Position numbers and translations under genes: made by a program. A model generated the notes under the pieces. That model was not told the DNA's origin. It made no database searches and saw only the letters and a list, made by a program, of their open reading frames with translations. Below, piece by piece: positions 6 to 14,801 of a stretch of 20,012 nt of DNA. Where the stretch lies: contig JBBECD010000164.1 in the NCBI GenBank assembly GCA_040881995.1, positions 1 through 20,012 of the forward strand, in the 5' to 3' direction. Each line of letters starts with the position of its first letter. Positions within the stretch are counted from its first letter, which is position 1. Source of the stretch: Planctomycetaceae bacterium. Its GTDB lineage: Bacteria; Planctomycetota; Planctomycetia; Planctomycetales; Planctomycetaceae.

Positions 6-50
6 CACCCTCTCCCCGATGTCTTTCTTACGAAAGACGGGGAGAGGGTG
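6..50. other. Long, nearly perfect hairpin (about 19 bp stem with a small bulge, nested GTCTTTC-ttac-GAAAGAC)
   Basis: caccctctcccc...ggggagagggtg read directly. Downstream of the oxidoreductase gene on the minus strand. Possible 3' end or terminator structure. Confidence 0.5.
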
Positions 51-1707: not shown

Positions 1708-2787
1708 ATGTCCTCCGTCGATCGTTTTTCCGCCGAGCTGATTGTCGAGCGCTATCTCAACGGCGTGCGGATCGACAGTTTTCTCAGCAAGCATCTGCGG
1801 AATTACACCTCGTGGCGGATCGCCCGCATCGTTCGGGCGGGGGGCGTGCGGATCGAAGGGGTGACGATCGAACTCCGCGAGCGCGTCCGTACCGGGCAGC
1901 ACGTCGAGATCGATCTGATCGAGCCGCCCGACAAGCTGCTCAAATCGGTGCCGTTCGATCTGCCGATTATTTACGAAGACCCGTGGCTGATCGTGATCAA
2001 CAAACCCCCCGGCGTGATCGCCCATCCCGCGGGAGAGTTTCAGACGCATTCGCTGGTCAACGCCGTGCAGTCGCACCTCGATGCGCAGACGGCCCGGCCG
2101 GGGTTGCTGCGAGCCGGGATCGTGCATCGGCTCGACCGCTTGACCAGCGGCGTGATCGTGGTCCCCAAAGAACATCTCTCGCATCGCATGTTGTCGATTC
2201 AGTTTCAGCAAAATCGGATTTCGAAAAACTATCTGGCGATTGTCGAGGGGGTCGTGTCCAAGGATCGCCAGACGGTCAACCTGCCGATCGGCCGGGCGCC
2301 GGGCGGGCGCGGCGTGCTGATGTCCGCCAAGCCGGACGCCATTGAAGCCCGGCCGGCCAAGACGATTATCGAAGTCGTCGAACGATTCGCCGAGCACACG
2401 CTGGTGCGGGCGAAACCGCTCTCGGGGCGATTGCATCAGATCCGCGTGCATCTGGCGGAACTCGGTTACCCGGTGGTCGCCGACGATTGCTACGAAGCCT
2501 TCGGCCGGTTGAAACCGGCGCCGGAGCGACGTGAGAAGATTTCAGCGCGGCAGACATCGACGTTGGACGACGTCGATGTCGACGAGGAAGTCGAACCGAT
2601 CGAGATCATCGACGAGGACGATGAGCCGAACGTCGAGATCGCAACGACCGGCGATGCGCTGATGCCGCGTCACGCCCTGCACGCCAGCCAGCTCGGTTTT
2701 CAACATCCGATCTTCAATGAATGGATGACCTTCACCGCCCCCCTGCCGGTGGACATGCAACGGACGCTTGATCGTTTGCGCGGCTGA
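1708..2787 (+). CDS. rluD: RluA/RluD-family 23S rRNA pseudouridine synthase with an N-terminal S4 domain
   Basis: S4-like N-terminus (FLSKHLRNYTSWRIARIVRAGGVRIEGV). Catalytic HRLDRLTSGVIVVPK motif. C-terminal RHALHASQLGFQHP motif. An acidic ~45-aa insertion (DDVDVDEEVEPIEIIDEDDEPNVE) precedes the last motif. ATG at 1708 chosen inside the longer ORF. Confidence 0.85.
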   Translation: MSSVDRFSAELIVERYLNGVRIDSFLSKHLRNYTSWRIARIVRAGGVRIEGVTIELRERVRTGQHVEIDLIEPPDKLLKSVPFDLPIIYEDPWLIVINKPPGVIAHPAGEFQTHSLVNAVQSHLDAQTARPGLLRAGIVHRLDRLTSGVIVVPKEHLSHRMLSIQFQQNRISKNYLAIVEGVVSKDRQTVNLPIGRAPGGRGVLMSAKPDAIEARPAKTIIEVVERFAEHTLVRAKPLSGRLHQIRVHLAELGYPVVADDCYEAFGRLKPAPERREKISARQTSTLDDVDVDEEVEPIEIIDEDDEPNVEIATTGDALMPRHALHASQLGFQHPIFNEWMTFTAPLPVDMQRTLDRLRG

Positions 2788-2796
2788 CAACGATCT

Positions 2797-2848
2797 CGTT
2801 CCCAAGCTCCCGCTTGGGAACGCAAGGTCTTCGAAGCTCCGCTTCGCC
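2797..2848. repeat. Dispersed repeat family A, copy 2
   Basis: Same sequence as 1471..1521 with a 1-nt indel. Sits between the rluD stop and the low-GC islet. Confidence 0.8.
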
Positions 2849-2927
2849 GAGTGTGTGTTGGCTGGCGAATGTGGTTCGGGTATCATTCAGACTCAGGCGT
2901 CAATCCCCTCAGTTTCCAGGATCAAAC

Positions 2928-3461
2928 ATGCGAATCGTCGTTGACATCATCGTGGACGATCTCGTCGCCGTTGCGAATCACTACCGCACAAAATCCACCT
3001 CGATCAATAAAATCAAACGACGCAGTACGCTGGTGATCGGCGGCGCCTTTATGATCGCTTTTGCTCTGCTGGCATACGTATCACATCGCCCCGGTTTTCT
3101 CATCTTCGGCGGCATCATCGCCGTTCTTTTCATGTTGCTCCACTCCTGGCGGTTCAACCGCTCGTTCGCCGCCAATTCCAAGAGTATCTATATGGAGAAG
3201 AACGGAAAAGGAATCCTCGGCATGAAGGAATTGAGAATCGATGAGGCGGGATTATTCAGCCGGAGCAACTATGCCGAAGCGACCTACTACTGGCATGGCA
3301 TCGATGACGTCGATGAGACGGACGACTATTACTTCGTCTCGGTCGGTGCATCGGGAACCATTATCATCCCCAAAGCCCGCATCCTCGAAGGGGACGCCGA
3401 TGCCTTTATGAATGAAGTCGAAAAACGCTGGATCGCTCACACGGCCGAGGTCGAGGCATAA
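2928..3461 (+). CDS. YcxB-like membrane protein (two TM helices plus PH-like C-terminal domain)
   Basis: N-terminal IVVDIIVDDLVAVANHY region. Two hydrophobic helices. C-terminus KNGKGILGMKELRIDEAGL...YYFVSVGASGTIIIPKARILEG, which matches the pattern of B. subtilis YcxB from memory. Paralog of 3949..4476. Confidence 0.7.
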   Translation: MRIVVDIIVDDLVAVANHYRTKSTSINKIKRRSTLVIGGAFMIAFALLAYVSHRPGFLIFGGIIAVLFMLLHSWRFNRSFAANSKSIYMEKNGKGILGMKELRIDEAGLFSRSNYAEATYYWHGIDDVDETDDYYFVSVGASGTIIIPKARILEGDADAFMNEVEKRWIAHTAEVEA

Positions 3462-3703
3462 CAGATTACCGGCTTTGTCTTCCAGTTTCTCCGTATGGTG
3501 TCGCGCCACACAATCAGGTGCCGCGACACCGCATGCGGACGGAAACGCGACTTTTTCGAGCCCGCAAAAAAGGATTTCAGTCTCGCTTGAATTTTTTGTA
3601 CAGATAAATAAGATCGTATCAGTTCGCACGATCATCTCATCGTCCCCGACGGTCGGGGGAACGAACCTTTCAGAACCGACAGTCGGAATGTTATGGAGTC
3701 ATC

Positions 3704-3949
3704 ATGATCGCGGCCCCTTATTATCTTCTCGCAGCGGGTATTTTGCTGATCGTTCTGGGTGTGATTTTCGCGGCGGTAATGCGGCCGACGATCGACAAAA
3801 CTTACATCGACCCGCGGATGAGCGACAAGCAGATTAAGAAACAACTCGAAAACGCCGACGGCAACCCCGCCGCGGCAATTGTGATTTTGCTGGGATTTGT
3901 GCTCTGCGGGGTGAGCGTCATTTGGCGGGTAGTGCGGATATTTGTGTGA
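3704..3949 (+). CDS. Small 81-aa membrane protein with two TM helices, unknown function
   Basis: GGAG RBS 8 nt upstream of the ATG. Two clear hydrophobic helices (LLAAGILLIVLGVIFAAV and AIVILLGFVLCGVSVIW). Its stop overlaps the next gene's ATG (TGATG). Confidence 0.5.
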   Translation: MIAAPYYLLAAGILLIVLGVIFAAVMRPTIDKTYIDPRMSDKQIKKQLENADGNPAAAIVILLGFVLCGVSVIWRVVRIFV

Positions 3950-4476
3950 TGGAGATTGTCAAGCGAATCGTCGTTGACCTTACTCTGAACGATTTCATGG
4001 CCTTTACGCGATTTGAACTTGCAAATTCGTCCACAATCCGCCGCATGAATAATAGAACGCTCACCGCGTTTATTCTGATGTTTGTGGTTCCCATTGTCGC
4101 GATCTTTTGGCTTTTCGAGCAGGATCGGATGACAATCGTTTCGGGGCTGATTCTCGTCCTGATGTGCATGTTTATCTGGCCGAGGCAAGTGAAAAGAGCC
4201 GAAGAAGAAAGAACAAAAGCCTTCTACAGTCAGTTTTGCCGCGATGAGTTAGTCAATAAGTTGGAAATGCAAATTGAAGACTCCGGACTCGTCATCATTA
4301 CGAATGCGAGCATGACGAATTGGAACTGGCACTCGATCAAACGCATCGAAACGACGGACGATCATCATTTTGTGTTTGTTACCGACACTTCCGCCCTCAT
4401 CATCCCTCGCCAGCACGTGGCTGAAGGAAATGTCGACGCATTTGCAGCGGAAATGAAACGACGCCTGTCAGATTGA
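3949..4476 (+). CDS. YcxB-like membrane protein, paralog of 2928..3461
   Basis: Same architecture as 2928..3461. C-terminal HHFVFVTDTSALIIPRQHVAEGNVDAFAAEMKRR aligns with YYFVSVGASGTIIIPKARILEGDADAFMNEVEKR. ATG overlaps the upstream stop by 1 nt. The six-frame ORF begins at a TTG at 3922. Confidence 0.7.
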   Translation: MEIVKRIVVDLTLNDFMAFTRFELANSSTIRRMNNRTLTAFILMFVVPIVAIFWLFEQDRMTIVSGLILVLMCMFIWPRQVKRAEEERTKAFYSQFCRDELVNKLEMQIEDSGLVIITNASMTNWNWHSIKRIETTDDHHFVFVTDTSALIIPRQHVAEGNVDAFAAEMKRRLSD

Positions 4477-4777
4477 CCGACGTTCGGCTTGAGTACGCCG
4501 CGGTTTCGTGTTATCGTTTTTCCTTCCATCACCTCGAATTTCACCGGATCGATCTTGAGCCGATCGGTCTGAGACGCCCTCGCTCACCACATGCCGTCAT
4601 TGATTTTTGACGTGACTTTCCCCCTGCGTCGCCGCATTCGCGGGCCTCCCCTCGTCGTTTCGCGCTCATGCTCCGTCCTACGAAGACGACGCCATTTCAA
4701 TTCCGTATTCCTTGTTCGAAGAATTCAACCCCCGTCGACCATGAGCCACTCGGCGGTGAAACTCATCGGCTCAATCC

Positions 4778-5017
4778 ATGTATCGATGCGAAAAGTGCGG
4801 CGTGCTTGTCCCGCCGCGGACCCCTGCCAACCGACTTGTGATCGAGACGCGAGAGAAACATTACCCATACCGGTCGAAAGCGAACCGGGTGGCCTACATC
4901 GACGAGAAAGGGAAACACAAGATCGATTACGTCGACGATCCCGGCGGGACGGGTTTGGAGATCGTGCAAGAGCTTAACGTCTGTCCGAAATGTGCGCGGG
5001 CGGCGACAATAGCGTGA
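4778..5017 (+). CDS. Small zinc-ribbon protein (CxxC...CxxC, FmdB-like N-terminus MYRCEKCG)
   Basis: Two CxxC pairs (CEKCG and CPKCA). A perfect 13-bp stem-loop terminator starts 11 nt after the stop. No strong RBS. Confidence 0.45.
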   Translation: MYRCEKCGVLVPPRTPANRLVIETREKHYPYRSKANRVAYIDEKGKHKIDYVDDPGGTGLEIVQELNVCPKCARAATIA

Positions 5018-5027
5018 CCGATTTGCT

Positions 5028-5065
5028 GCCACTGCTGACCGCTTTGGTCAGCAGTGGCTTTATGG
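5028..5065 (+). terminator. Rho-independent terminator-like hairpin GCCACTGCTGACC-gcttt-GGTCAGCAGTGGC followed by TTTA
   Basis: Perfect 13-bp inverted repeat read directly in the sequence. Lies between the convergent zinc-ribbon gene and ribBA, so it may act in both directions. Confidence 0.6.
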
Positions 5066-5087
5066 CGAATTCGCGTCGGCACACGAT

Positions 5088-5130
5088 TGAAGCGCTCCGC
5101 TGCGCAAAGCCTGCGCGTCGCGGCTAAACG
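5088..5130. repeat. Dispersed repeat family B, copy 2
   Basis: gaagcgctccgctgcgcaaagcctgcgcgtcgcggctaaacg, just past the ribBA stop. Confidence 0.8.
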
Positions 5131-5144
5131 AAGAAACGGCGCGA

Positions 5145-6419
5145 TCACCGCGTCTCGCTTCCGTTGCCGGGGAGGCGGTGGCCCATTTTGTCGCGTTTGG
5201 TGTTCATGTAGACTTCGCGGGTTTTTTCATGCGGGGCGATGATGGGGACTTGCTCGACGACCGTCAGATCGAATGCGTTTTCGAACGGTTCAGTCTTCTT
5301 CGGGTTGTTCGTCAGCAGGCGGATTTTCTTGAGACCTAAATCCTTGAGAATCTGCAGGCCGATGCCGTAGTCGCGCTGGTCGACGCGAAATCCGAGTTCG
5401 GTGTTGGCATCGACGGTGTCGAGTCCCGCATCTTGCAGTTGATACGACTTGAGTTTCGCAACCAGACCGATGCCGCGGCCTTCCTGCGGCAAGTAGACGA
5501 CCGCTCCCGTGCCGTGCTGGTGGATCATCGCCATCGCCATGTGCAACTGGTCGCCGCAATCGCAGCGGAGCGACCCGAGCAGATCGCCGGTGAAGCACGA
5601 GGAGTGCATGCGGATCAGCGGAGCCTCGACGGACTTCAAATCGCCCCAGACGAGGGCCAGCGGCTCCTGATGTTCGTGTTCGACTTTGTAGGCAACGACG
5701 CGCACGCTGCCGTACTGAGCCGTGGGGATGTCGACTTCGACCGCGCGGTGAATCAGCCGTTCGCGCTGCATGCGGTAACGAATGAGGTCGGTCGTGCTGA
5801 TGATCGGCAGCGAATAGGTCTGCGAGAGTTCGGCGAGCTCGCGGTAATCGGCCATGCCGTCGCCGGTGGCACTGCAGATTTCGATCAGCGCTCCGACCGG
5901 CTTGAGTCCGGCGAGTTTGAGCAGATCGATGGTGGCCTCGGTATGACCGGCCCGGCGCAGAACGCCCCCCTCTTTCGCCGAGAGAGGCATGATGTGTCCC
6001 GGGCGGACGAAATCGATGGCGTGCGCTTCGGGGTCGGCGAGCGATTTGAGCGTCAAAGCTCGCGCGGAGGAGCTGACTCCCGAGCCGGAATTGCGGTGAT
6101 CGACGGGCGTGAGAAAATGCGTGCGGTTGGGGGCGTTGTTGTTTTCGCTGCTGACGATCGGGACGAGACTGAGCCGGTCGGCGATCTCTTTGGTCATCGG
6201 GGCGCACAGCACGCCGCGTCCGTTGCGGAGCATGAAGTGCACCATCTCGGGGGTGATCGATTCGGCGGCGCAGATGAAGTCCCCTTCATTCTCGCGGTCG
6301 GCCTCGTCGACGACGATAATCATTTTGCCTTGTTTAAGGGCTTCGAGTGCCGCGTCGACGGAATGATATGCAATACCCGGCGAGGGATCGGGGGAGGTGA
6401 GCAGCGAGCGTTCGATCAC
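5145..6419 (-). CDS. ribBA: Bifunctional 3,4-dihydroxy-2-butanone-4-phosphate synthase / GTP cyclohydrolase II
   Basis: N-terminal DHBP synthase domain (VVDEADRENEGDFICAAE...HTEATIDLLKLAGL). C-terminal GTP cyclohydrolase II with zinc-binding CFTGDLLGSLRCDCG and LTNNPKK motif. GTG start at 6419. Confidence 0.95.
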   Translation of the reverse strand: MIERSLLTSPDPSPGIAYHSVDAALEALKQGKMIIVVDEADRENEGDFICAAESITPEMVHFMLRNGRGVLCAPMTKEIADRLSLVPIVSSENNNAPNRTHFLTPVDHRNSGSGVSSSARALTLKSLADPEAHAIDFVRPGHIMPLSAKEGGVLRRAGHTEATIDLLKLAGLKPVGALIEICSATGDGMADYRELAELSQTYSLPIISTTDLIRYRMQRERLIHRAVEVDIPTAQYGSVRVVAYKVEHEHQEPLALVWGDLKSVEAPLIRMHSSCFTGDLLGSLRCDCGDQLHMAMAMIHQHGTGAVVYLPQEGRGIGLVAKLKSYQLQDAGLDTVDANTELGFRVDQRDYGIGLQILKDLGLKKIRLLTNNPKKTEPFENAFDLTVVEQVPIIAPHEKTREVYMNTKRDKMGHRLPGNGSETR

Positions 6420-6523
6420 GTTTGGTTCTCTTTTTCACGCAGTTTCGAGAAAGGCAGTTGTCATACCGCTTTCATTGTATGACGAGACGGGGCGTGAAAG
6501 AAGAGCGCGGGAGCGGGAATGGC

Positions 6524-6663
6524 GAATGTCGAAGCTCGAATGTCGAATCAAGTCCGAATGACGAATGACCAAATGTCGAATGGCACGCTAATGTCAACGT
6601 TTCGACATTCGGGCTTTGGACTTCGTCATTGATTCGTCATTCGGATTTCGTCATTCGACATTC
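6524..6663. repeat. Palindromic array: about 4 direct GAATGWCGAA decamers on the left arm, and 4 of the complement TTCGWCATTC on the right arm
   Basis: Read directly: gaatgtcgaa x3 and gaatgacgaa on the left, ttcgacattc/ttcgtcattc x4 on the right, centred near 6590. Spans from the SPFH gene stop to the ribBA leader. Confidence 0.7.
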
Positions 6664-8344
6664 ACCGCGAGACTTTGGGCGCACTCGCCGGCTTCACCGG
6701 CGGGGAATATTCGGACGTCGCTTCGTCCTGCTTCATCTGGCGGCCGAGCATCACGTCGGTGAAGCCTTTGAGGTCGGTCCAGAAGGTTCCCTGGCCGGCG
6801 TAGAGCAGATTGAGCTGGATGTCGTCGGGCAAGCCGGAAGCGAACACCCATTGGTTGTAGGCTTCGCCGCTGCCGAAGGCCTCGACGGCGAGCTGGAACT
6901 TCTGCGATTTGGCTTCCTGCATCAGCTTCTCGGCGTCGGCATCGGCCCGGCCCAACAGCACGACGGCCTGCGCGTCGAGTTCGGCGGTCTCCCTAGCAAT
7001 CGTGGCGACTTTCTTCTGCGTCTCGGCTTTGGTCTGCTCGGCTACCTTTTGCCCCTCGGCGATCGCTTCGGCGACGAGCTTGCCGGTCTCGAGTTCGGTT
7101 CGTTCCGATTCGAGTTCGACCTTCTGTTCTTCCTCGCGCAAAGTCGCCTCGGTTTTCGCGGTCAACTGTTCCTGATCGCGGGTCAACTTAAGTTCGTTGG
7201 CGATGTTCGACAGTTGAATCGGCAGACGCACTTCCCGCGGGATGTACATGTGACGCACGAGTCCGTACAGCAGCGAGAGTTCTTTTTCTTCAAGAACCTT
7301 CTTAAACGATTCGGTCGTTTCGTCCTGAAAACCCTGGCGGGTTTCGCCGACGAGCAGATCGACTGCGCCGACTTTTGAACCCATGTTGCGGCAGATGCTT
7401 TCGATCTGCGGGCCGATGACTTTGGTTTCCACGGCGTCGATGTTGCCGAACTTGCGAATCACTTCGGGGGCCTGTTCGGGCAAGATGCCCCAGATCGCCG
7501 TGAAATCCATGTGAATCTTGAAACCGTCTTTCGACGGGAAGGTGATGCCGCTCTCCTGGTCGGCGAGCATCGGTTCGCCGCTTTCGTCGAAAATCAGATC
7601 GCCGGCCTGATCGGCTTTCAGGTTGACGGTCAGAGAGAGTTCGCGATAGCCGATTTTGACGAGATCGACATGTTGCTCTTTGGGATTGATGGCGTAGAGT
7701 CCGGGAGGGAGCGTCTGATCCTGGATACCGGCTTTGGCCCCGGTCTCTTTATCGCCGGTCAAATTGGTGACGACGCCGATATATCCCGCCGGGATATCGA
7801 CCCAGCCGTTGTGCCGTTTGTCGTAGGTGACAGCGGCATCTTCGGTCGCGACGATCTCAAATTTGTAGGCGTAGTCGTTGATGCGATACCGGCCGGGGCC
7901 GAAGACGCGGCGGACGATGCCCTTGTGCTGCGTCGCGCCGAGATCCCCTTCGACGAGGAATTCTCCTTTCGGCAGGTCGTTCCCCATCTTGCTGCTGGCG
8001 ATGCCGACTTGACCGGGCTTGACTTCGACGTCCTCGATCAGCGTGCATTCCCACCAGAGCGGGTTATAAAAATGCCGCCCTGGGCCGACCATCTGTTCGA
8101 GCACGCCGACCTGGGTCGGTCTGCCCTGTTCGTCGACTTCGGCGAACGTTCCCGGTGTGACGGCCGGCAGACTCCCCGGCAGCCCTGGCAGCGGCGGGCC
8201 TTTGTATCTCAGCCTCATGCTATAGCCGACCGGGACGTAACGGTAGTTGACGGTCCACTGGACCGCTTCCCAACCGGCATACACGCCGGGGACGAGCAGC
8301 AGGACGGCGACGATCAGATAACTGGTCCATTTTTCGCGGAACAT
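6662..8344 (-). CDS. SPFH/band-7 (flotillin/YqiK-like) membrane protein. N-terminal TM, duplicated beta-rich module, SPFH domain and coiled coil
   Basis: N-terminal TM helix (YLIVAVLLLVPGVYAGW). SPFH core FPSKDGFKIHMDFTAIWGILPEQAPEVIRKFG. Long Glu/Ala/Lys-rich coiled coil (EQLTAKTEATLREEEQKVELE...). GAGGA RBS 8 nt upstream. Confidence 0.85.
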   Translation of the reverse strand: MFREKWTSYLIVAVLLLVPGVYAGWEAVQWTVNYRYVPVGYSMRLRYKGPPLPGLPGSLPAVTPGTFAEVDEQGRPTQVGVLEQMVGPGRHFYNPLWWECTLIEDVEVKPGQVGIASSKMGNDLPKGEFLVEGDLGATQHKGIVRRVFGPGRYRINDYAYKFEIVATEDAAVTYDKRHNGWVDIPAGYIGVVTNLTGDKETGAKAGIQDQTLPPGLYAINPKEQHVDLVKIGYRELSLTVNLKADQAGDLIFDESGEPMLADQESGITFPSKDGFKIHMDFTAIWGILPEQAPEVIRKFGNIDAVETKVIGPQIESICRNMGSKVGAVDLLVGETRQGFQDETTESFKKVLEEKELSLLYGLVRHMYIPREVRLPIQLSNIANELKLTRDQEQLTAKTEATLREEEQKVELESERTELETGKLVAEAIAEGQKVAEQTKAETQKKVATIARETAELDAQAVVLLGRADADAEKLMQEAKSQKFQLAVEAFGSGEAYNQWVFASGLPDDIQLNLLYAGQGTFWTDLKGFTDVMLGRQMKQDEATSEYSPPVKPASAPKVSR

Positions 8345-12531: not shown

Positions 12532-12969
12532 TCACGTCCCCGATGTCTTCAGTTCGAGTTTCAATTCCCCGTCGTGAGGAATCGTCACCGTGAGCGGCGT
12601 TTTGTCTTCCGTGGCGTAGACTTCGGGGAGCAGCGATTTCATCGCTTCGGTCTTGCCGGTCGAGGGGTCGAATTTTTGGACGGTGATTTTGTATTCGCCC
12701 GGTTTGACCCCTTCGTTCTGGATCGTGACCATCTTGAACTTGCCGCCGTCGCGCGTGCTGGCGTGGGCATGTTTGCCCGTGTTCTCGTCCAGGGGAATCA
12801 GCACGATCGAGGCATCGTCCACCGGCGCGCCGTCCAACGTGACGACGCCGGTCGTTTCGTGATAGGTTTCGCCGCTGCCGCAACCGCCGATAAACGCCAG
12901 CGCTAGAATCGCCGGCAGACAACGCCAGCGGGCTGCGCCGATCTTCTTGTCGTTGTGCACGTTGCTCAT
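12532..12969 (-). CDS. Small lipoprotein (lipobox LAFIGGC), carboxypeptidase-regulatory-like beta domain. The usual partner of DUF1559 genes
   Basis: Signal peptide plus lipobox. ATG overlaps the upstream TAA stop (TAATG), so translationally coupled. Beta-rich 145-aa product. Confidence 0.7.
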   Translation of the reverse strand: MSNVHNDKKIGAARWRCLPAILALAFIGGCGSGETYHETTGVVTLDGAPVDDASIVLIPLDENTGKHAHASTRDGGKFKMVTIQNEGVKPGEYKITVQKFDPSTGKTEAMKSLLPEVYATEDKTPLTVTIPHDGELKLELKTSGT

Positions 12970-13910
12970 TATTCCGTCACCGCCTCATCGCCTGCCACCG
13001 TGCCGAGATTCTGCCAGATCTGCATGCTGATGTTCTCGGAATAGAACTTGACGGCGCCATCGGCCATTAAAGCGAAGACGCCCCCTTCGTGAAAACTCTT
13101 GAATCCGCGAGCGATCGGCCAGTTCCCCCAGTTGCCCCCTTTGAGGCCGCAGGTATCATACAGCCGCAGGTTGATGCCGTTGGAGGTCGTGTAGCTGTTC
13201 ATGTCGCCATAGGCCCAACTCGACCAGTTGCAGCAGTTGGGAATAATTTCGGCGATGGCGATCGTCGAACTCGACCCGTCGATGATGTGCTTCATGCCGC
13301 GACGCCGGGGATAAAACGAGTCCCCCGCGAGGCTCTTGTCGGATGCGAACCCTTCGCCTCCGGTCGCCGAACAAAATCCGTTGGGGCTTGTCGACGGGCA
13401 AGTATAGACTGGGCCGGAGTACAGATAACTCGTGGCGGAGCTCCGCGCGACGCCGTTCATAAAATCGCGGCCGTAACGGTCGCCGCTGTCGATGACTTCC
13501 GTCGCCGTGGGATCGGAGGGACACGTAAAACCGGGGATCACCGCTCCCGCCAGGTCGGCGTTGGGAGCCACGCGGCCGCTCACGCTGAAGTTGAACTTGT
13601 TGTACAGCGGGGCCTGATCCATGTAAGGCAACAGGTACACGTGGAAGTTAAACGTCGGTGTGAAATCGACGGAATATCCGGGCCACGAATGCTGACTGAA
13701 CGAAGGAGGAAAGAGCTGGTGGGCGTCGTGATAATTGTGCAACGCCAGCCCGAACTGATGCAGATTATTCTGACATTGGCTCCGCCGGGCCGCTTCGCGG
13801 GCCTGCTGAACGGCGGGTAACAATAGCGCGATCAGCACCGCGATAATCGCGATGACGACCAACAGTTCAATCAAGGTAAATCCCCGCGTAATACGCCTAT
13901 TTCGATTCAT
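12969..13910 (-). CDS. DUF1559 (H-X9-DG) prepilin-type N-terminal cleavage/methylation domain protein
   Basis: N-terminus [54 protein letters not shown] is the canonical Planctomycetota DUF1559 signature. RBS AAGGGGA. Confidence 0.9.
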
Positions 13911-14134
13911 CGAATACTCCCCTTAAATACCAGCGAGCGACATCAGAATATTTGCGCGGAAGCGACGTCTCCGTCAGCCATCTCGTGCACAAATGAATGG
14001 AGCCATTGCGTTAATCCACGATCTTGACGAGGGCGAAAAACCGTTCATGCTATCCTAACCTCGCCGCCGCGACGTTGTCCAGCGGCGACAGGGTGATGCC
14101 GTAAATATCGCAAGAAGTCCCCTGTCTGAAGAAA

Positions 14135-14296
14135 ATAATGGTGGTGTCCTAATTTGGAAGAACTCAGCGGGTGGCACGTCCCTGAGCGGCTGTTCGGATG
14201 CAATACCGTGCGAAGGGCGTGGTTCTCTTCAGCAATCGACACGCCCGTCGAAGACTCCGGGACGTGCCACCCAAATTAGGACACCACTAAAATAAT
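14135..14296. mobile_element. MITE-like element or large structured palindrome. About 35-bp terminal inverted repeats around a ~75-bp core
   Basis: Left arm aataatGGTGGTGTCCTAATTTGG(12-nt insert)GGTGGCACGTCCC. Right arm GGGACGTGCCACCCAAATTAGGACACCACtaaaataat. Nested imperfect hairpin in the core (cgaagggcgtg...cacgcccgtcg). Confidence 0.5.
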
Positions 14297-14315
14297 CGAG
14301 AGACGGCAATGCGGC

Positions 14316-14343
14316 TTGCATTCTACATATTTTTGTGTAGAAT
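14316..14343 (+). promoter_or_regulatory. Sigma70-like promoter TTGCAT-N16-TAGAAT overlapped by a palindromic operator ATTCTACA-N8-TGTAGAAT. Candidate Rrf2 autoregulatory site
   Basis: Read directly. The -10 element ends about 30 nt upstream of the Rrf2 ATG. RBS AAGGAGAG follows. The 8+8 palindrome has an AT-rich centre typical of Rrf2/NsrR sites. Confidence 0.55.
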
Positions 14344-14372
14344 AGAGTCCGTTCTTCAAAAGGAGAGACGCG

Positions 14373-14801
14373 ATGCTCACGAAAACGGCGGAATACGCGC
14401 TTCGCATCGCCGCCTGCCTGGCGGCTGACGGCGAAGCTCCGGAATCGGCCGATCGCCTTGCCGAAGTCACCAAGATTCCCAGGCGATATTTGCCGACCGT
14501 GCTGCAAGATCTCGTTCGCGCGGAACTGGTTCGATCCCGTTCCGGTCCCGGAGGGGGATATTCGTTGGCGAGACCCGCCGATAAGATCACGATTCTCGAC
14601 GTCGTCAACGCCGTCTCTCCCCTCGAACGAATTCGACATTGCCCCCTTGGATTGCCCTCCCATACGCGGCTTTGCCCGCTACATAAAGTGCTCGACCAGG
14701 CCTATGCGGAAACCGAAAAGGCTTTCGCCGGCGTGACGATCGCGGACGTGCTGAACTCCGTCACAGACGTCGTCCCCCTCTGCGATGTTTCATGCTCATG
14801 A
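14373..14801 (+). CDS. Rrf2-family transcriptional regulator (NsrR/IscR-like) with non-canonical Cys spacing
   Basis: N-terminal wHTH MLTKTAEYALRIAACLA. GGGYSLARP motif. Cys cluster CPLGLPSHTRLCPLH plus C-terminal PLCDVSCS. Strong RBS. Confidence 0.85.
   Translation: MLTKTAEYALRIAACLAADGEAPESADRLAEVTKIPRRYLPTVLQDLVRAELVRSRSGPGGGYSLARPADKITILDVVNAVSPLERIRHCPLGLPSHTRLCPLHKVLDQAYAETEKAFAGVTIADVLNSVTDVVPLCDVSCS

What the first reader, a model, noticed from the sequence alone, without database searches (positions are those of the whole stretch)
14135..14296. MITE-like 160-bp inverted-repeat element upstream of the Rrf2/heme operon
Two arms share 17-18 bp and 12 bp perfect inverted matches, ggtggtgtcctaatttgg and ggtggcacgtccc, around a ~75-bp core with its own nested hairpin. 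The size and architecture fit a miniature inverted-repeat transposable element inserted in the divergent promoter region. Alternatively it is a large regulatory or ncRNA structure. In either case it sits where it could affect expression of both the DUF1559 gene and the Rrf2 operon.
Basis: seen in the sequence. Interest (0 to 1): 0.6.

Follow-up and report, generated by a model that had tools for sequence, protein, structure and literature searches.

The report
IS1-type miniature transposon upstream of Rrf2
A 149-bp non-coding "hitch-hiker" transposon (a MITE, which depends on an IS1-type transposase encoded elsewhere) has inserted between two divergent promoters in a planctomycete genome. This is an ordinary kind of mobile DNA, although its family of end sequences is widespread across soil bacterial phyla.

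Summary
Window 14140-14288 is a 149-bp element. It has 18-bp terminal inverted repeats (GGTGGTGTCCTAATTTGG, 17/18 matched), a perfect 14-bp inner inverted repeat and a nested hairpin. The same terminal repeat bounds elements of 36 bp to 3.5 kb in more than 114 genome loci and 65 IMG/VR contigs, from Acidobacteriota, Planctomycetota, Verrucomicrobiota, Proteobacteria and others. Of 54 paired elements, 39 carry 7-8/8 matching 8-bp duplications. The long versions encode a 273-aa IS1-family DDE transposase, and a few encode an IS1595 transposase. The window has no transposase, no Rfam hit and no coding capacity in the element. Relatives conserve the Rrf2 promoter/operator but not the element. It therefore fits a non-autonomous IS1-superfamily MITE lying between the divergent core promoters and interrupting neither. 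I could not test copy number of this subfamily in the host genome; the only hint is that Logan contigs break about 30 nt inside each end. This is a new member of a known kind and of low interest. One side observation: about 10-15% of family insertions sit exactly 15 bp from a TTGACA-like motif.

The parts
14132..14139 (.). Left copy of the 8-bp target-site duplication, AAAATAAT
   Evidence: Read directly. It is identical to 14289-14296 and abuts the element tip, as do the 8-bp duplications in 39 of 54 family members.
14140..14157 (+). Left terminal inverted repeat, GGTGGTGTCCTAATTTGG
   Evidence: The same 17-18-mer is the tip of elements in L003-L116 and L128-L192. The family consensus is GGTRGTGTCCTAATTTG.
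14158..14168 (.). 11-nt unpaired stretch (AAGAACTCAGC) present on the left side only
   Evidence: it forms the internal loop in the predicted fold.
14169..14182 (+). Left arm of the inner inverted repeat, GGGTGGCACGTCCC
   Evidence: (I2); 14/14 complementary to 14259-14272.
14183..14258 (.). 76-nt non-coding core with a nested hairpin (14211-14221 / 14240-14250)
   Evidence: (I9). It has no similarity to any fetched family member, no Rfam match and no Pfam match for the overlapping 65-aa ORF (protein 8).
14259..14272 (-). Right arm of the inner inverted repeat
14271..14288 (-). Right terminal inverted repeat. It reads AGTGGTGTCCTAATTTGG on the - strand, with one mismatch at the tip.
14289..14296 (.). 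Right copy of the 8-bp target-site duplication, AAAATAAT
   Evidence: Read directly.
14316..14343 (+). Context, not part of the element: the native Rrf2 promoter/operator. It reads TTGCAT-16 nt-TAGAAT, overlapped by the palindrome ATTCTACA-N8-TGTAGAAT.
   Evidence: I17. The module is conserved in relatives L117 and L120. It starts 19 bp beyond the right-hand duplication, so the element does not interrupt it.
14052..14081 (-). Context: a promoter-like site facing the DUF1559 gene (TGGACA-18-TAGGAT)
   Evidence: a consensus match only. It lies 58 bp outside the left tip of the element.

Best explanation
[quoted passage not shown] The following mechanism is inferred from how such elements work. 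A DDE transposase encoded elsewhere, of the 273-306-aa IS1-like type found inside full-length elements with the same ends, binds the 18-bp terminal repeats. It joins the element into a target cut with an 8-bp stagger, and repair of the gaps produced the AAAATAAT duplication. The insertion landed in the AT-rich spacer between the divergent core promoters of the DUF1559 gene and the Rrf2(NsrR-like)-Tll0287 operon. It lengthened the intergenic region by 157 bp and left both core promoters and the Rrf2 operator intact. The internal inverted repeats give the hairpin-forming body typical of MITEs. The interior is unrelated to the autonomous elements fetched, which is the 'type II' pattern in the terminology of PMC6382973. 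Any effect on expression would be a side-effect, not a designed function. Possible effects are displaced upstream sequences, altered promoter coupling, or a weak hybrid promoter GTGCCA-18-TAAAAT formed at the right junction.
For: Shown in the sequence: terminal repeats matched 17/18 and a perfect 8-bp flanking direct repeat.

Family evidence:
- 54 loci have a partner repeat in inverted orientation, bounding elements of 36 bp to 3.5 kb. Of these, 26 have perfect 8-bp duplications and 13 have 7/8.
- One Planctomycetota MAG (CAVRBU01) carries about 20 fetched copies of a roughly 122-bp MITE with these ends, each with a different duplication.
- An independent scan of IMG/VR found 65 more stretches, with 8 perfect duplications among 12 pairs.

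Transposase evidence:
- 20 loci carry a roughly 273-aa protein next to or inside the repeats.
- That protein passes Pfam DDE_Tnp_IS1 at 27.7 and 37.3 bits against a cut-off of 24.1.
- Its best NCBIfam match is transpos_IS1.
- It is 44-46% identical to plasmid genes, three of the four best of which are annotated 'IS1 family transposase'. Two of those elements end in the related sequence GGTAGTGTCTCAGTTTGA.
- Three loci carry an IS1595-family transposase instead.
- A Planctomycetaceae MAG (L091) has the repeat with an IS1-like 306-aa gene.
- A published IS1-family element has the terminal repeat GGTGGTGTTTC... and 8-bp duplications (PMC6382973).

Locus evidence:
- The window has no transposase and no Rfam hit.
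- Relatives with the same Rrf2-Tll0287 operon have intergenic regions of 215-337 bp. The window has 462 bp, which becomes 305 bp once the 157 inserted bases are removed.
- Two relatives share the promoter/operator but nothing upstream of it.
- Two Logan contigs from SRR27977658 stop 29 and 28 nt inside the two ends of the element. This is what a k=31 assembly graph does at a repeat that has several different flanks.
Against: I found no second copy of this subfamily, meaning the same interior. It was absent from the 190 fetched loci and from two scans of JGI metagenome contigs. The host genome beyond this contig could not be searched, so 'multicopy in the host' is untested. No transposase gene from the host genome is in hand. 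No empty site was seen, because the nearest relatives are only about 75-78% identical in Rrf2 protein. The Logan contig breaks could also come from low read coverage over a strong hairpin.
Confidence: 0.88

Rival explanations
1. This is an in-situ remnant, not a mobilised MITE. A full-length IS1-like element inserted here, making the duplication, and later lost its interior by deletion. That would leave the two ends as a single-copy relic that was never mobile as a 149-bp unit.
For: No second copy with this interior was found. The family contains many size classes from 36 bp to 3.5 kb, including obvious deletion derivatives such as L026 (36 bp) and L066 (64 bp).
Against: The 113-bp interior has no similarity to any autonomous element fetched. 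It is itself organised as a perfect 14-bp inverted repeat plus a nested hairpin. That organisation is typical of amplified MITE families, such as the 122-bp CAVRBU01 family, and is not expected from a random deletion. The Logan contig breaks about 30 nt inside both ends suggest more than one genomic context in the sample.
Confidence: 0.08
2. This is a native regulatory palindrome or structured non-coding RNA belonging to the Rrf2/DUF1559 intergenic region, for example a large operator, attenuator or sRNA.
For: The predicted structure is very stable (z = -7.3 and -6.7). The element lies in a divergent promoter region.
Against: There is no Rfam match even at E <= 10. Orthologous upstream regions that conserve the promoter/operator lack it. 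Its outer arms are identical to transposon ends found in unrelated contexts in many phyla, and it is flanked by a perfect 8-bp duplication. It lies upstream of the predicted Rrf2 promoter, so it would not be part of that mRNA.
Confidence: 0.02
3. This is an invertible DNA switch: a segment flipped by a site-specific recombinase acting on the inverted repeats, giving phase-variable expression of the neighbouring genes.
For: Inverted repeats flank a roughly 110-bp segment between two genes. The Logan assembly breaks inside the repeats, which could in principle reflect two orientations in the population.
Against: The 20 window ORFs scanned against Pfam include no recombinase, though I did not search for recombinases specifically. 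The interior is itself nearly palindromic, so flipping it would change little. No good promoter is predicted inside it. The 8-bp direct repeats and the family-wide association with DDE transposases fit transposition, not inversion.
Confidence: 0.01

Closest known systems
IS1 family insertion sequences (E. coli IS1; ISAba3-like elements of Tn6645, PMC6382973)
   Same: The terminal repeats start GGTGGTGT/GGTRRTG, and insertion makes an 8-bp duplication (8-9 bp for IS1, from my own knowledge). The autonomous elements that share this repeat encode a protein that passes the Pfam DDE_Tnp_IS1 cut-off. Its closest annotated relatives are mostly named 'IS1 family transposase'.
   Different: The window element has no transposase at all. 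The partner transposases are single 273-306-aa ORFs with no InsA/InsB frameshift arrangement. They score below the NCBIfam IS1 equivalog cut-off (59-68 bits against 100). The autonomous elements are 2.4-3.5 kb and carry passenger ORFs, against about 0.77 kb for IS1 (size from my own knowledge).
IS1595 family insertion sequences
   Same: Insertion makes an 8-bp duplication. Two fetched elements with exactly this terminal repeat (L060, L112) encode clear IS1595 transposases, at 149 bits for DDE_Tnp_IS1595 plus the zinc ribbon.
   Different: Most transposase-bearing elements with this repeat carry the IS1-like protein instead: 20 loci against 3. Which enzyme moved the window copy cannot be decided.
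Bacterial MITEs as defined in PMC6382973 (e.g. MITEAba12, 113 bp, mobilised by ISAba12)
   Same: It is a small (50-600 bp) non-coding element with terminal inverted repeats. It has a target-site duplication of the same length as the parent IS, sits in an intergenic region and has hairpin potential.
   Different: The parent family is different (IS1/IS1595 type). The element is not AT-rich (about 56% G+C). Transposition activity and copy number have not been demonstrated for this copy.
The roughly 122-bp MITE family of Planctomycetota MAG MFD04944.bin.1.246 (CAVRBU01; loci L005, L020, L022, L033, L042, L080, L097, L101 and others)
   Same: It has the same 17-18-bp terminal repeat, an 8-bp duplication, a palindromic interior and a planctomycete host.
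   Different: The interior is unrelated and the length differs (122 against 149 bp). That family is demonstrably multicopy (about 20 fetched copies), whereas the window subfamily is known from one copy.

Membership tests
Bacterial MITE | Small size (about 50-600 bp) and no coding capacity | tested here: met
   The element is 149 bp. The only ORF overlapping it (14045-14242, 65 aa) has no Pfam match. tblastn with the family's transposases finds nothing in the window.
Bacterial MITE | Terminal inverted repeats | tested here: met
   18-bp arms matched 17/18; expected 0.00 by chance.
Bacterial MITE | Target-site duplication directly flanking the ends, of the same length as in the parent IS | tested here: met
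   AAAATAAT at 14132-14139 and 14289-14296. Family members show 8-bp duplications: 26 perfect and 13 at 7/8, out of 54.
Bacterial MITE | Ends shared with an autonomous element that encodes a transposase | tested here: met
   The same repeat bounds 2.4-3.5-kb elements encoding IS1-like or IS1595 transposases, including one in a Planctomycetaceae MAG (L091).
Bacterial MITE | Several copies in the host genome at different sites, and a co-resident parent IS | not testable with these tools
   Only this 20,012-bp contig of the MAG is available. Metagenome scans found no copy with this interior. The only indirect hint is that Logan contigs end 28-29 nt inside each tip.
Bacterial MITE | Presence/absence polymorphism (an empty site in close relatives) | tested here: inconclusive
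   The nearest relatives are only 75-78% identical in Rrf2. They lack the element and have shorter intergenic regions (215-337 bp against 462 bp). Outside the promoter/operator the flanks no longer align.
IS1 family (as the source of the ends) | Terminal repeats of the GGTRRTG... type and 8-9-bp duplications | tested here: met
   The repeat is GGTGGTGTCC... with an 8-bp duplication. Compare the ISAba3-like repeat GGTGGTGTTTCAAAAAGTATGCTG with 8-bp duplications (PMC6382973), and the ends of elements annotated as IS1-family on plasmids.
IS1 family (as the source of the ends) | Partner transposase belongs to the IS1 DDE family | tested here: inconclusive
   Pfam DDE_Tnp_IS1 is passed (27.7 and 37.3 bits against 24.1), and the closest annotated homologues are mostly 'IS1 family transposase'. 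However, NCBIfam transpos_IS1 scores 59-68 bits against a cut-off of 100, with weaker hits to IS481, IS6 and IS1595.
IS1 family (as the source of the ends) | InsA/InsB arrangement with a programmed -1 frameshift (classical IS1 only; from my own knowledge) | tested here: not met
   The partner transposases are single uninterrupted ORFs of 273-306 aa. From my own knowledge, single-ORF subgroups of the IS1 family exist, so this does not exclude family membership.
IS1595 family (alternative source of the ends) | DDE_Tnp_IS1595 transposase with an N-terminal zinc ribbon, between these ends, with an 8-bp duplication | tested here: met
   L060 (3382 bp) and L112 (1957 bp) have perfect 8-bp duplications and transposases scoring 149 bits and 42.5 bits on the two Pfam models. 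This applies to those loci, not to the window.
Known structured RNA (Rfam) | Match to a covariance model | tested here: not met
   No match at gathering thresholds in the whole window. No match at E <= 10 in 13900-14400.

The most novel reading that the evidence does not exclude
The transposon family to which this MITE belongs may choose its targets by reading a promoter-like signal. In 22 of 152 flanks (genomes) and 7 of 78 flanks (IMG/VR), a TTGAC(A/G/T) motif lies exactly 15 bp outside one tip of the element, that is 7 bp beyond the duplication. Other offsets give 0-3. The motif is always on one side only, and in 4 of 4 autonomous elements it is on the side distal to the transposase start. 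If this reflects directed insertion just upstream of sigma-70-type -35 boxes, through the transposase's own HTH domain or through promoter-bound RNA polymerase, these elements and their MITEs would be systematic promoter-proximal insertions across several phyla. The window copy, sitting 19 bp upstream of the Rrf2 -35 box, would then be a relaxed example that may modulate an NsrR-like regulon.
Probability: 0.2. Interest if true: 0.55.

Novelty: new member of a known kind. Interest (0 to 1): 0.25.

Why it matters
For this locus the practical message concerns annotation. The 157 extra bases upstream of the Rrf2(NsrR-like)-Tll0287 operon are mobile DNA, not a riboswitch, sRNA or operator. The native promoter/operator begins only at about 14316.

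For the wider picture, the terminal repeat GGTRGTGTCCTAATTTG marks a transposon family that I did not find in the open-access literature available to me. The family spans Acidobacteriota, Planctomycetota, Verrucomicrobiota, Proteobacteria, Saccharibacteria and predicted viral contigs. It produces MITE bursts (about 20 fetched copies in one planctomycete MAG) and carries passenger genes. Such elements break short-read assemblies and are easily mistaken for regulatory RNA structures. If the fixed-register TTGACA association proves to be true target selection, the family would be a useful natural system for studying promoter-directed transposition.

Tried and rejected
- Rfam at gathering thresholds on the whole window, and at E <= 10 on 13900-14400, found nothing.
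- I looked for more copies of this MITE's interior. BLASTN against all fetched loci gave only 12-17-nt chance matches. A metagenome scan with the right junction 21-mer gave 0 hits. A metagenome scan with the repeat plus inner-arm pattern gave 3 hits. These are other MITEs or elements of the same repeat family with unrelated interiors. Their shared GTGGCACG is imposed by the search pattern and carries no weight.
- The window has no other copy of the repeat within 3 mismatches. The contig ends show no trace of the element.
- An empty-site comparison failed because there are no close relatives. Only the promoter/operator aligns.
- I tested whether the TTGACA-bearing flanks are real promoters. A co-directional ORF within 40-300 nt occurs in 75% of them against 68% of controls, which is uninformative in high-GC DNA. 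A -10-like hexamer at 16-18 nt occurs in 10/22 against 38/130, p = 0.14, not significant. The 'promoter' reading of the motif therefore remains unproven.
- A literature search for the repeat sequence itself returned only unrelated primer matches. Searches for IS1-derived MITEs and for planctomycete MITEs gave nothing specific. The FEMS IS review could not be retrieved.
- The first 60 residues of three copies of the recurrent small passenger ORF have no Pfam family.
- I considered searching the protein database with a translation of the MITE to catch copies inside spurious ORFs. I rejected this as low-yield for its cost.

Full report
**1. What is in the sequence**

The intergenic region between the DUF1559/N-methyl gene (12969-13910, minus strand) and the Rrf2 regulator gene (14373-14801, plus strand) is 462 bp long.

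- The outer arms are GGTGGTGTCCTAATTTGG at 14140-14157 and its reverse complement at 14271-14288, with one mismatch at the outermost base.
- The inner arms are GGGTGGCACGTCCC at 14169-14182 and 14259-14272, with no mismatch.
- A nested 11-nt hairpin lies in the 76-nt core.
- An 11-nt stretch (14158-14168) separates the outer and inner arms on the left only.

Shuffled versions of the window never contain the 18-mer. The region folds far better than shuffles on either strand, with z = -7.3 and -6.7.

AAAATAAT occurs at 14132-14139 and again at 14289-14296, directly abutting the two tips. The element proper is therefore 14140-14288, 149 bp.

**2. It matches no known RNA**

No Rfam family matches the window at gathering thresholds. 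Nothing matches 13900-14400 even at E <= 10.

**3. The outer arms are the ends of a widespread transposon family**

A random 17-mer would be expected about 70 times in 596 Gb by my arithmetic, so the count alone proves nothing. The structure of the hits does.

- In 54 loci a second copy in inverted orientation (up to 4 mismatches) lies downstream. These pairs delimit elements of 36 bp to about 3.5 kb.
- In 26 of these the 8 bp outside the two tips are identical, and in 13 more they match 7/8.
- The hosts are mostly soil and peat MAGs of Acidobacteriota, Planctomycetota, Verrucomicrobiota and Alpha-/Gammaproteobacteria. Single loci come from Saccharibacteria, Nitrospirota, Dormibacterota and others.
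- One Planctomycetota MAG (CAVRBU01) has about 20 fetched copies of a roughly 122-bp element with these ends and a palindromic interior. Each copy has a different duplication, for example GGGCACAG, ACTGGCTG and CATTCGTC. This is a textbook MITE burst.
- A second, independent scan of IMG/VR contigs with GGTRGTGTCCTAATTTG gave 65 more stretches. Eight of 12 pairs there have perfect 8-bp duplications.

The unbiased partner ends give the family consensus GGTRGTGTCCTAATTTG. Conservation stops after position 17-18.

**4. Which transposase**

Elements of 2.4-3.5 kb with these ends contain a single ORF of about 273 aa, found in 20 of the 114 loci.

- The ORF passes the Pfam IS1 transposase model, at 27.7 and 37.3 bits against a cut-off of 24.1.
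- NCBIfam transpos_IS1 is its best match, although below that model's equivalog cut-off.
- It is 44-46% identical to plasmid genes, three of the four best of which are annotated 'IS1 family transposase'.
- Two of those plasmid elements end in a related sequence, GGTAGTGTCTCAGTTTGA.
- A published IS1-family element (ISAba3-like) has the terminal repeat GGTGGTGTTTCAAAAAGTATGCTG and makes 8-bp duplications (PMC6382973).

Three loci instead carry an unambiguous IS1595-family transposase between the same ends. The repeat therefore serves two related transposase types, and I cannot say which one moved the window copy. A Planctomycetaceae MAG (L091) has the repeat followed by an IS1-like 306-aa gene, so the machinery exists in the window's family. 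The window itself encodes no transposase or recombinase among the 20 ORFs scanned against Pfam. tblastn with both family transposases also finds nothing in the window.

**5. The locus in relatives**

The window is a complete 20,012-bp contig of an NCBI MAG labelled Planctomycetaceae bacterium. The nearest Rrf2 homologues are only 75-78% identical, and several are annotated by JGI as nitric-oxide-sensitive repressors.

Four relatives keep Rrf2 followed by Tll0287-like genes. Their upstream intergenic regions measure 215-337 bp. The window's 462 bp becomes 305 bp once the 149-bp element and one copy of the duplication are removed.

Two relatives (L117, L120) share with the window a conserved module, CTTGCATTCTACA...TGTAGAAT. 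This is a TTGCAT-16-TAGAAT promoter overlapped by an 8-N8-8 palindrome, presumably the Rrf2 operator. In the window it lies at 14316-14343. Nothing upstream of that module is conserved, and none of the relatives has the repeat.

The element plus its duplication ends 19 bp upstream of the -35 hexamer. On the other side, the only promoter-like site facing the DUF1559 gene (14081-14052) lies 58 bp outside the left tip. The insertion therefore sits between the two divergent core promoters and interrupts neither.

**6. Copy number in the host: the open point**

I could not search the rest of the host genome. No locus in hand, and no JGI metagenome contig, contains this element's interior.

One indirect hint exists. 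In the Logan assembly of run SRR27977658, the contig carrying the DUF1559 gene stops at window position 14168, 29 nt inside the left tip. The contig carrying Rrf2 starts at 14261, 28 nt inside the right tip. From my own knowledge, Logan assemblies use k = 31. In such a graph, contigs coming from unique flanks end about k-1 = 30 nt inside a repeat that has several different flanks. The 1-2-nt offsets are what chance identity of neighbouring bases would give. This fits a multicopy element. Poor read coverage of a strong hairpin could also cause the breaks, so I treat this as suggestive only.

**7. How it most likely works**

*Shown:* a non-coding 149-bp element with family-typical ends and a perfect 8-bp duplication, in a genome region with no transposase.

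*Inferred from how DDE transposons and MITEs work (PMC6382973):*
- An IS1/IS1595-type transposase made elsewhere recognises the 17-18-bp ends.
- It inserts the element into an 8-bp staggered cut, and gap repair duplicates AAAATAAT.
- The interior is unrelated to the autonomous elements fetched. This is the 'type II' pattern, where unrelated DNA is captured between two ends.
- The near-perfect ends, the perfect inner repeat and the perfect duplication suggest a fairly recent insertion.

*Regulatory consequences are speculative:*
- The insertion moves whatever lay upstream of -55 of the Rrf2 promoter 157 bp away.
- It separates the divergent promoters.
- It creates a weak consensus promoter, GTGCCA-18-TAAAAT, across the right junction at 14264-14293 (9 of 12 matches).

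**8. Rivals**

- *In-situ deletion remnant of a full-length IS.* This is not excluded, because only one copy is known. The highly ordered palindromic interior and the Logan breaks argue against it.
- *Native regulatory palindrome or RNA.* The transposon ends, the duplication, the lack of conservation in relatives and the lack of any Rfam match all argue against this.
- *Invertible switch.* There is no nearby recombinase, the interior is itself nearly palindromic, and the direct repeats fit transposition.

**9. Side observation on target choice**

Reading outward from the element tips, a TTGACA-like hexamer (at least 5 of 6 matches) starts exactly 15 nt from the tip in 24 of 152 flanks, and the exact pentamer TTGAC does so in 22. 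That position is 7 nt beyond the duplication. Every other offset tested gives 0-3.

- The IMG/VR set replicates this: 7 of 78 flanks (6 unique), against 0-2 elsewhere.
- The motif is never on both sides of an element.
- In the four autonomous elements that have it, the motif is on the side distal to the transposase start.
- Many of these flanks continue with a -10-like hexamer 17-18 nt further out, but that is not significantly more frequent than in controls (p = 0.14). A crude test for downstream genes was uninformative.

The register-specific motif is real. Whether it means promoter targeting is open. The window copy does not have the motif at that register: its neighbouring -35 box is 27 nt from the tip.

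**10. Verdict**

The element is a new member of a known kind: a MITE of the IS1/IS1595 superfamily. I did not find this repeat group in the literature I could search. The finding is of low interest in itself. The family-level features are recorded for whoever wants to follow them: near-identical ends across phyla, two transposase types on one repeat, passenger genes, and a fixed-register TTGACA association.

Noticed in passing
Loci L003-L116 and L128-L192 (flanks of the terminal repeat); not present at window 14140-14288: A TTGAC(A/G/T) motif lies exactly 15 nt outside one tip of the element, 7 nt beyond the 8-bp duplication. It occurs in 22/152 flanks (genomes) and 7/78 flanks (IMG/VR), against 0-3 at other offsets. 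It is on one side only. In 4/4 autonomous elements it is on the side distal to the transposase start. This could be oriented target selection next to -35-like boxes. Enrichment of a -10 hexamer was not significant.
   Followed up: partly
L060 (locus-oriented 2148-5529) and L112 (325-2281) compared with L047, L065, L092, L074 and others: The same 17-nt terminal repeat bounds elements that encode two different transposase types: an IS1-like 273-aa protein (20 loci) and an IS1595-family 316-aa protein with a zinc ribbon (3 loci).
   Followed up: partly
L081 (676-bp element), and also L040, L047, L010 and L029: Elements with perfect 8-bp duplications carry passenger ORFs. One is a recurrent 100-120-aa ORF (motif ...VPV..F.G...W.G.V.VF.L.GHP....YAW), which is the only ORF in the 676-bp element of L081. 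The first 60 residues have no Pfam family. Several long elements also carry ORFs of roughly 250-350 aa that look like secreted proteins.
   Followed up: partly
Loci from CAVRBU01 (e.g. L005, L022, L033, L038, L080, L097, L101): One Planctomycetota MAG (MFD04944.bin.1.246) holds about 20 fetched copies of a roughly 122-bp MITE with this repeat and a perfect 21-bp internal stem. In the L038 copy the central loop (GTACGAGAATCAC) is inverted relative to the other copies, as if flipped by hairpin-mediated template switching.
   Followed up: no
window 6517-6663: A second long hairpin lies in the intergenic region between the ribBA gene (5145-6419, -) and an SPFH/Band 7 gene (6662-8344, -). It consists of arrays of the heptamer GAATGTC/GAATGAC on the left, facing their reverse complement on the right (arms 6518-6547/6601-6630 and 6550-6566/6632-6648). 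The fold z-score is -4.8. It has no terminal repeat of the IS1 type and no Rfam hit. It may be a different repeat element.
   Followed up: partly
window 14320-14343; L117 and L120 about 30-60 nt upstream of their Rrf2 start codons: A conserved palindrome, ATTCTACA-N8-TGTAGAAT, overlaps the -35/-10 region of the Rrf2 promoter in the window and in two relatives. It is probably the autoregulatory operator of this NsrR-like repressor.
   Followed up: partly
L128-L192 (IMG/VR contigs): The terminal repeat occurs in 65 stretches of predicted viral contigs, nine of them with the IS1-like transposase. Phages or prophage regions may help carry the family between phyla, or these contigs may be misclassified host DNA.
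   Followed up: no
window 6-50: The contig starts with a GC-rich hairpin (CCACCCTCTCCCCG...CGGGGAGAGGGTG) just downstream of the stop codon of the GFO/IDH/MocA oxidoreductase gene (87-1529, -). It looks like an intrinsic terminator.
   Followed up: no
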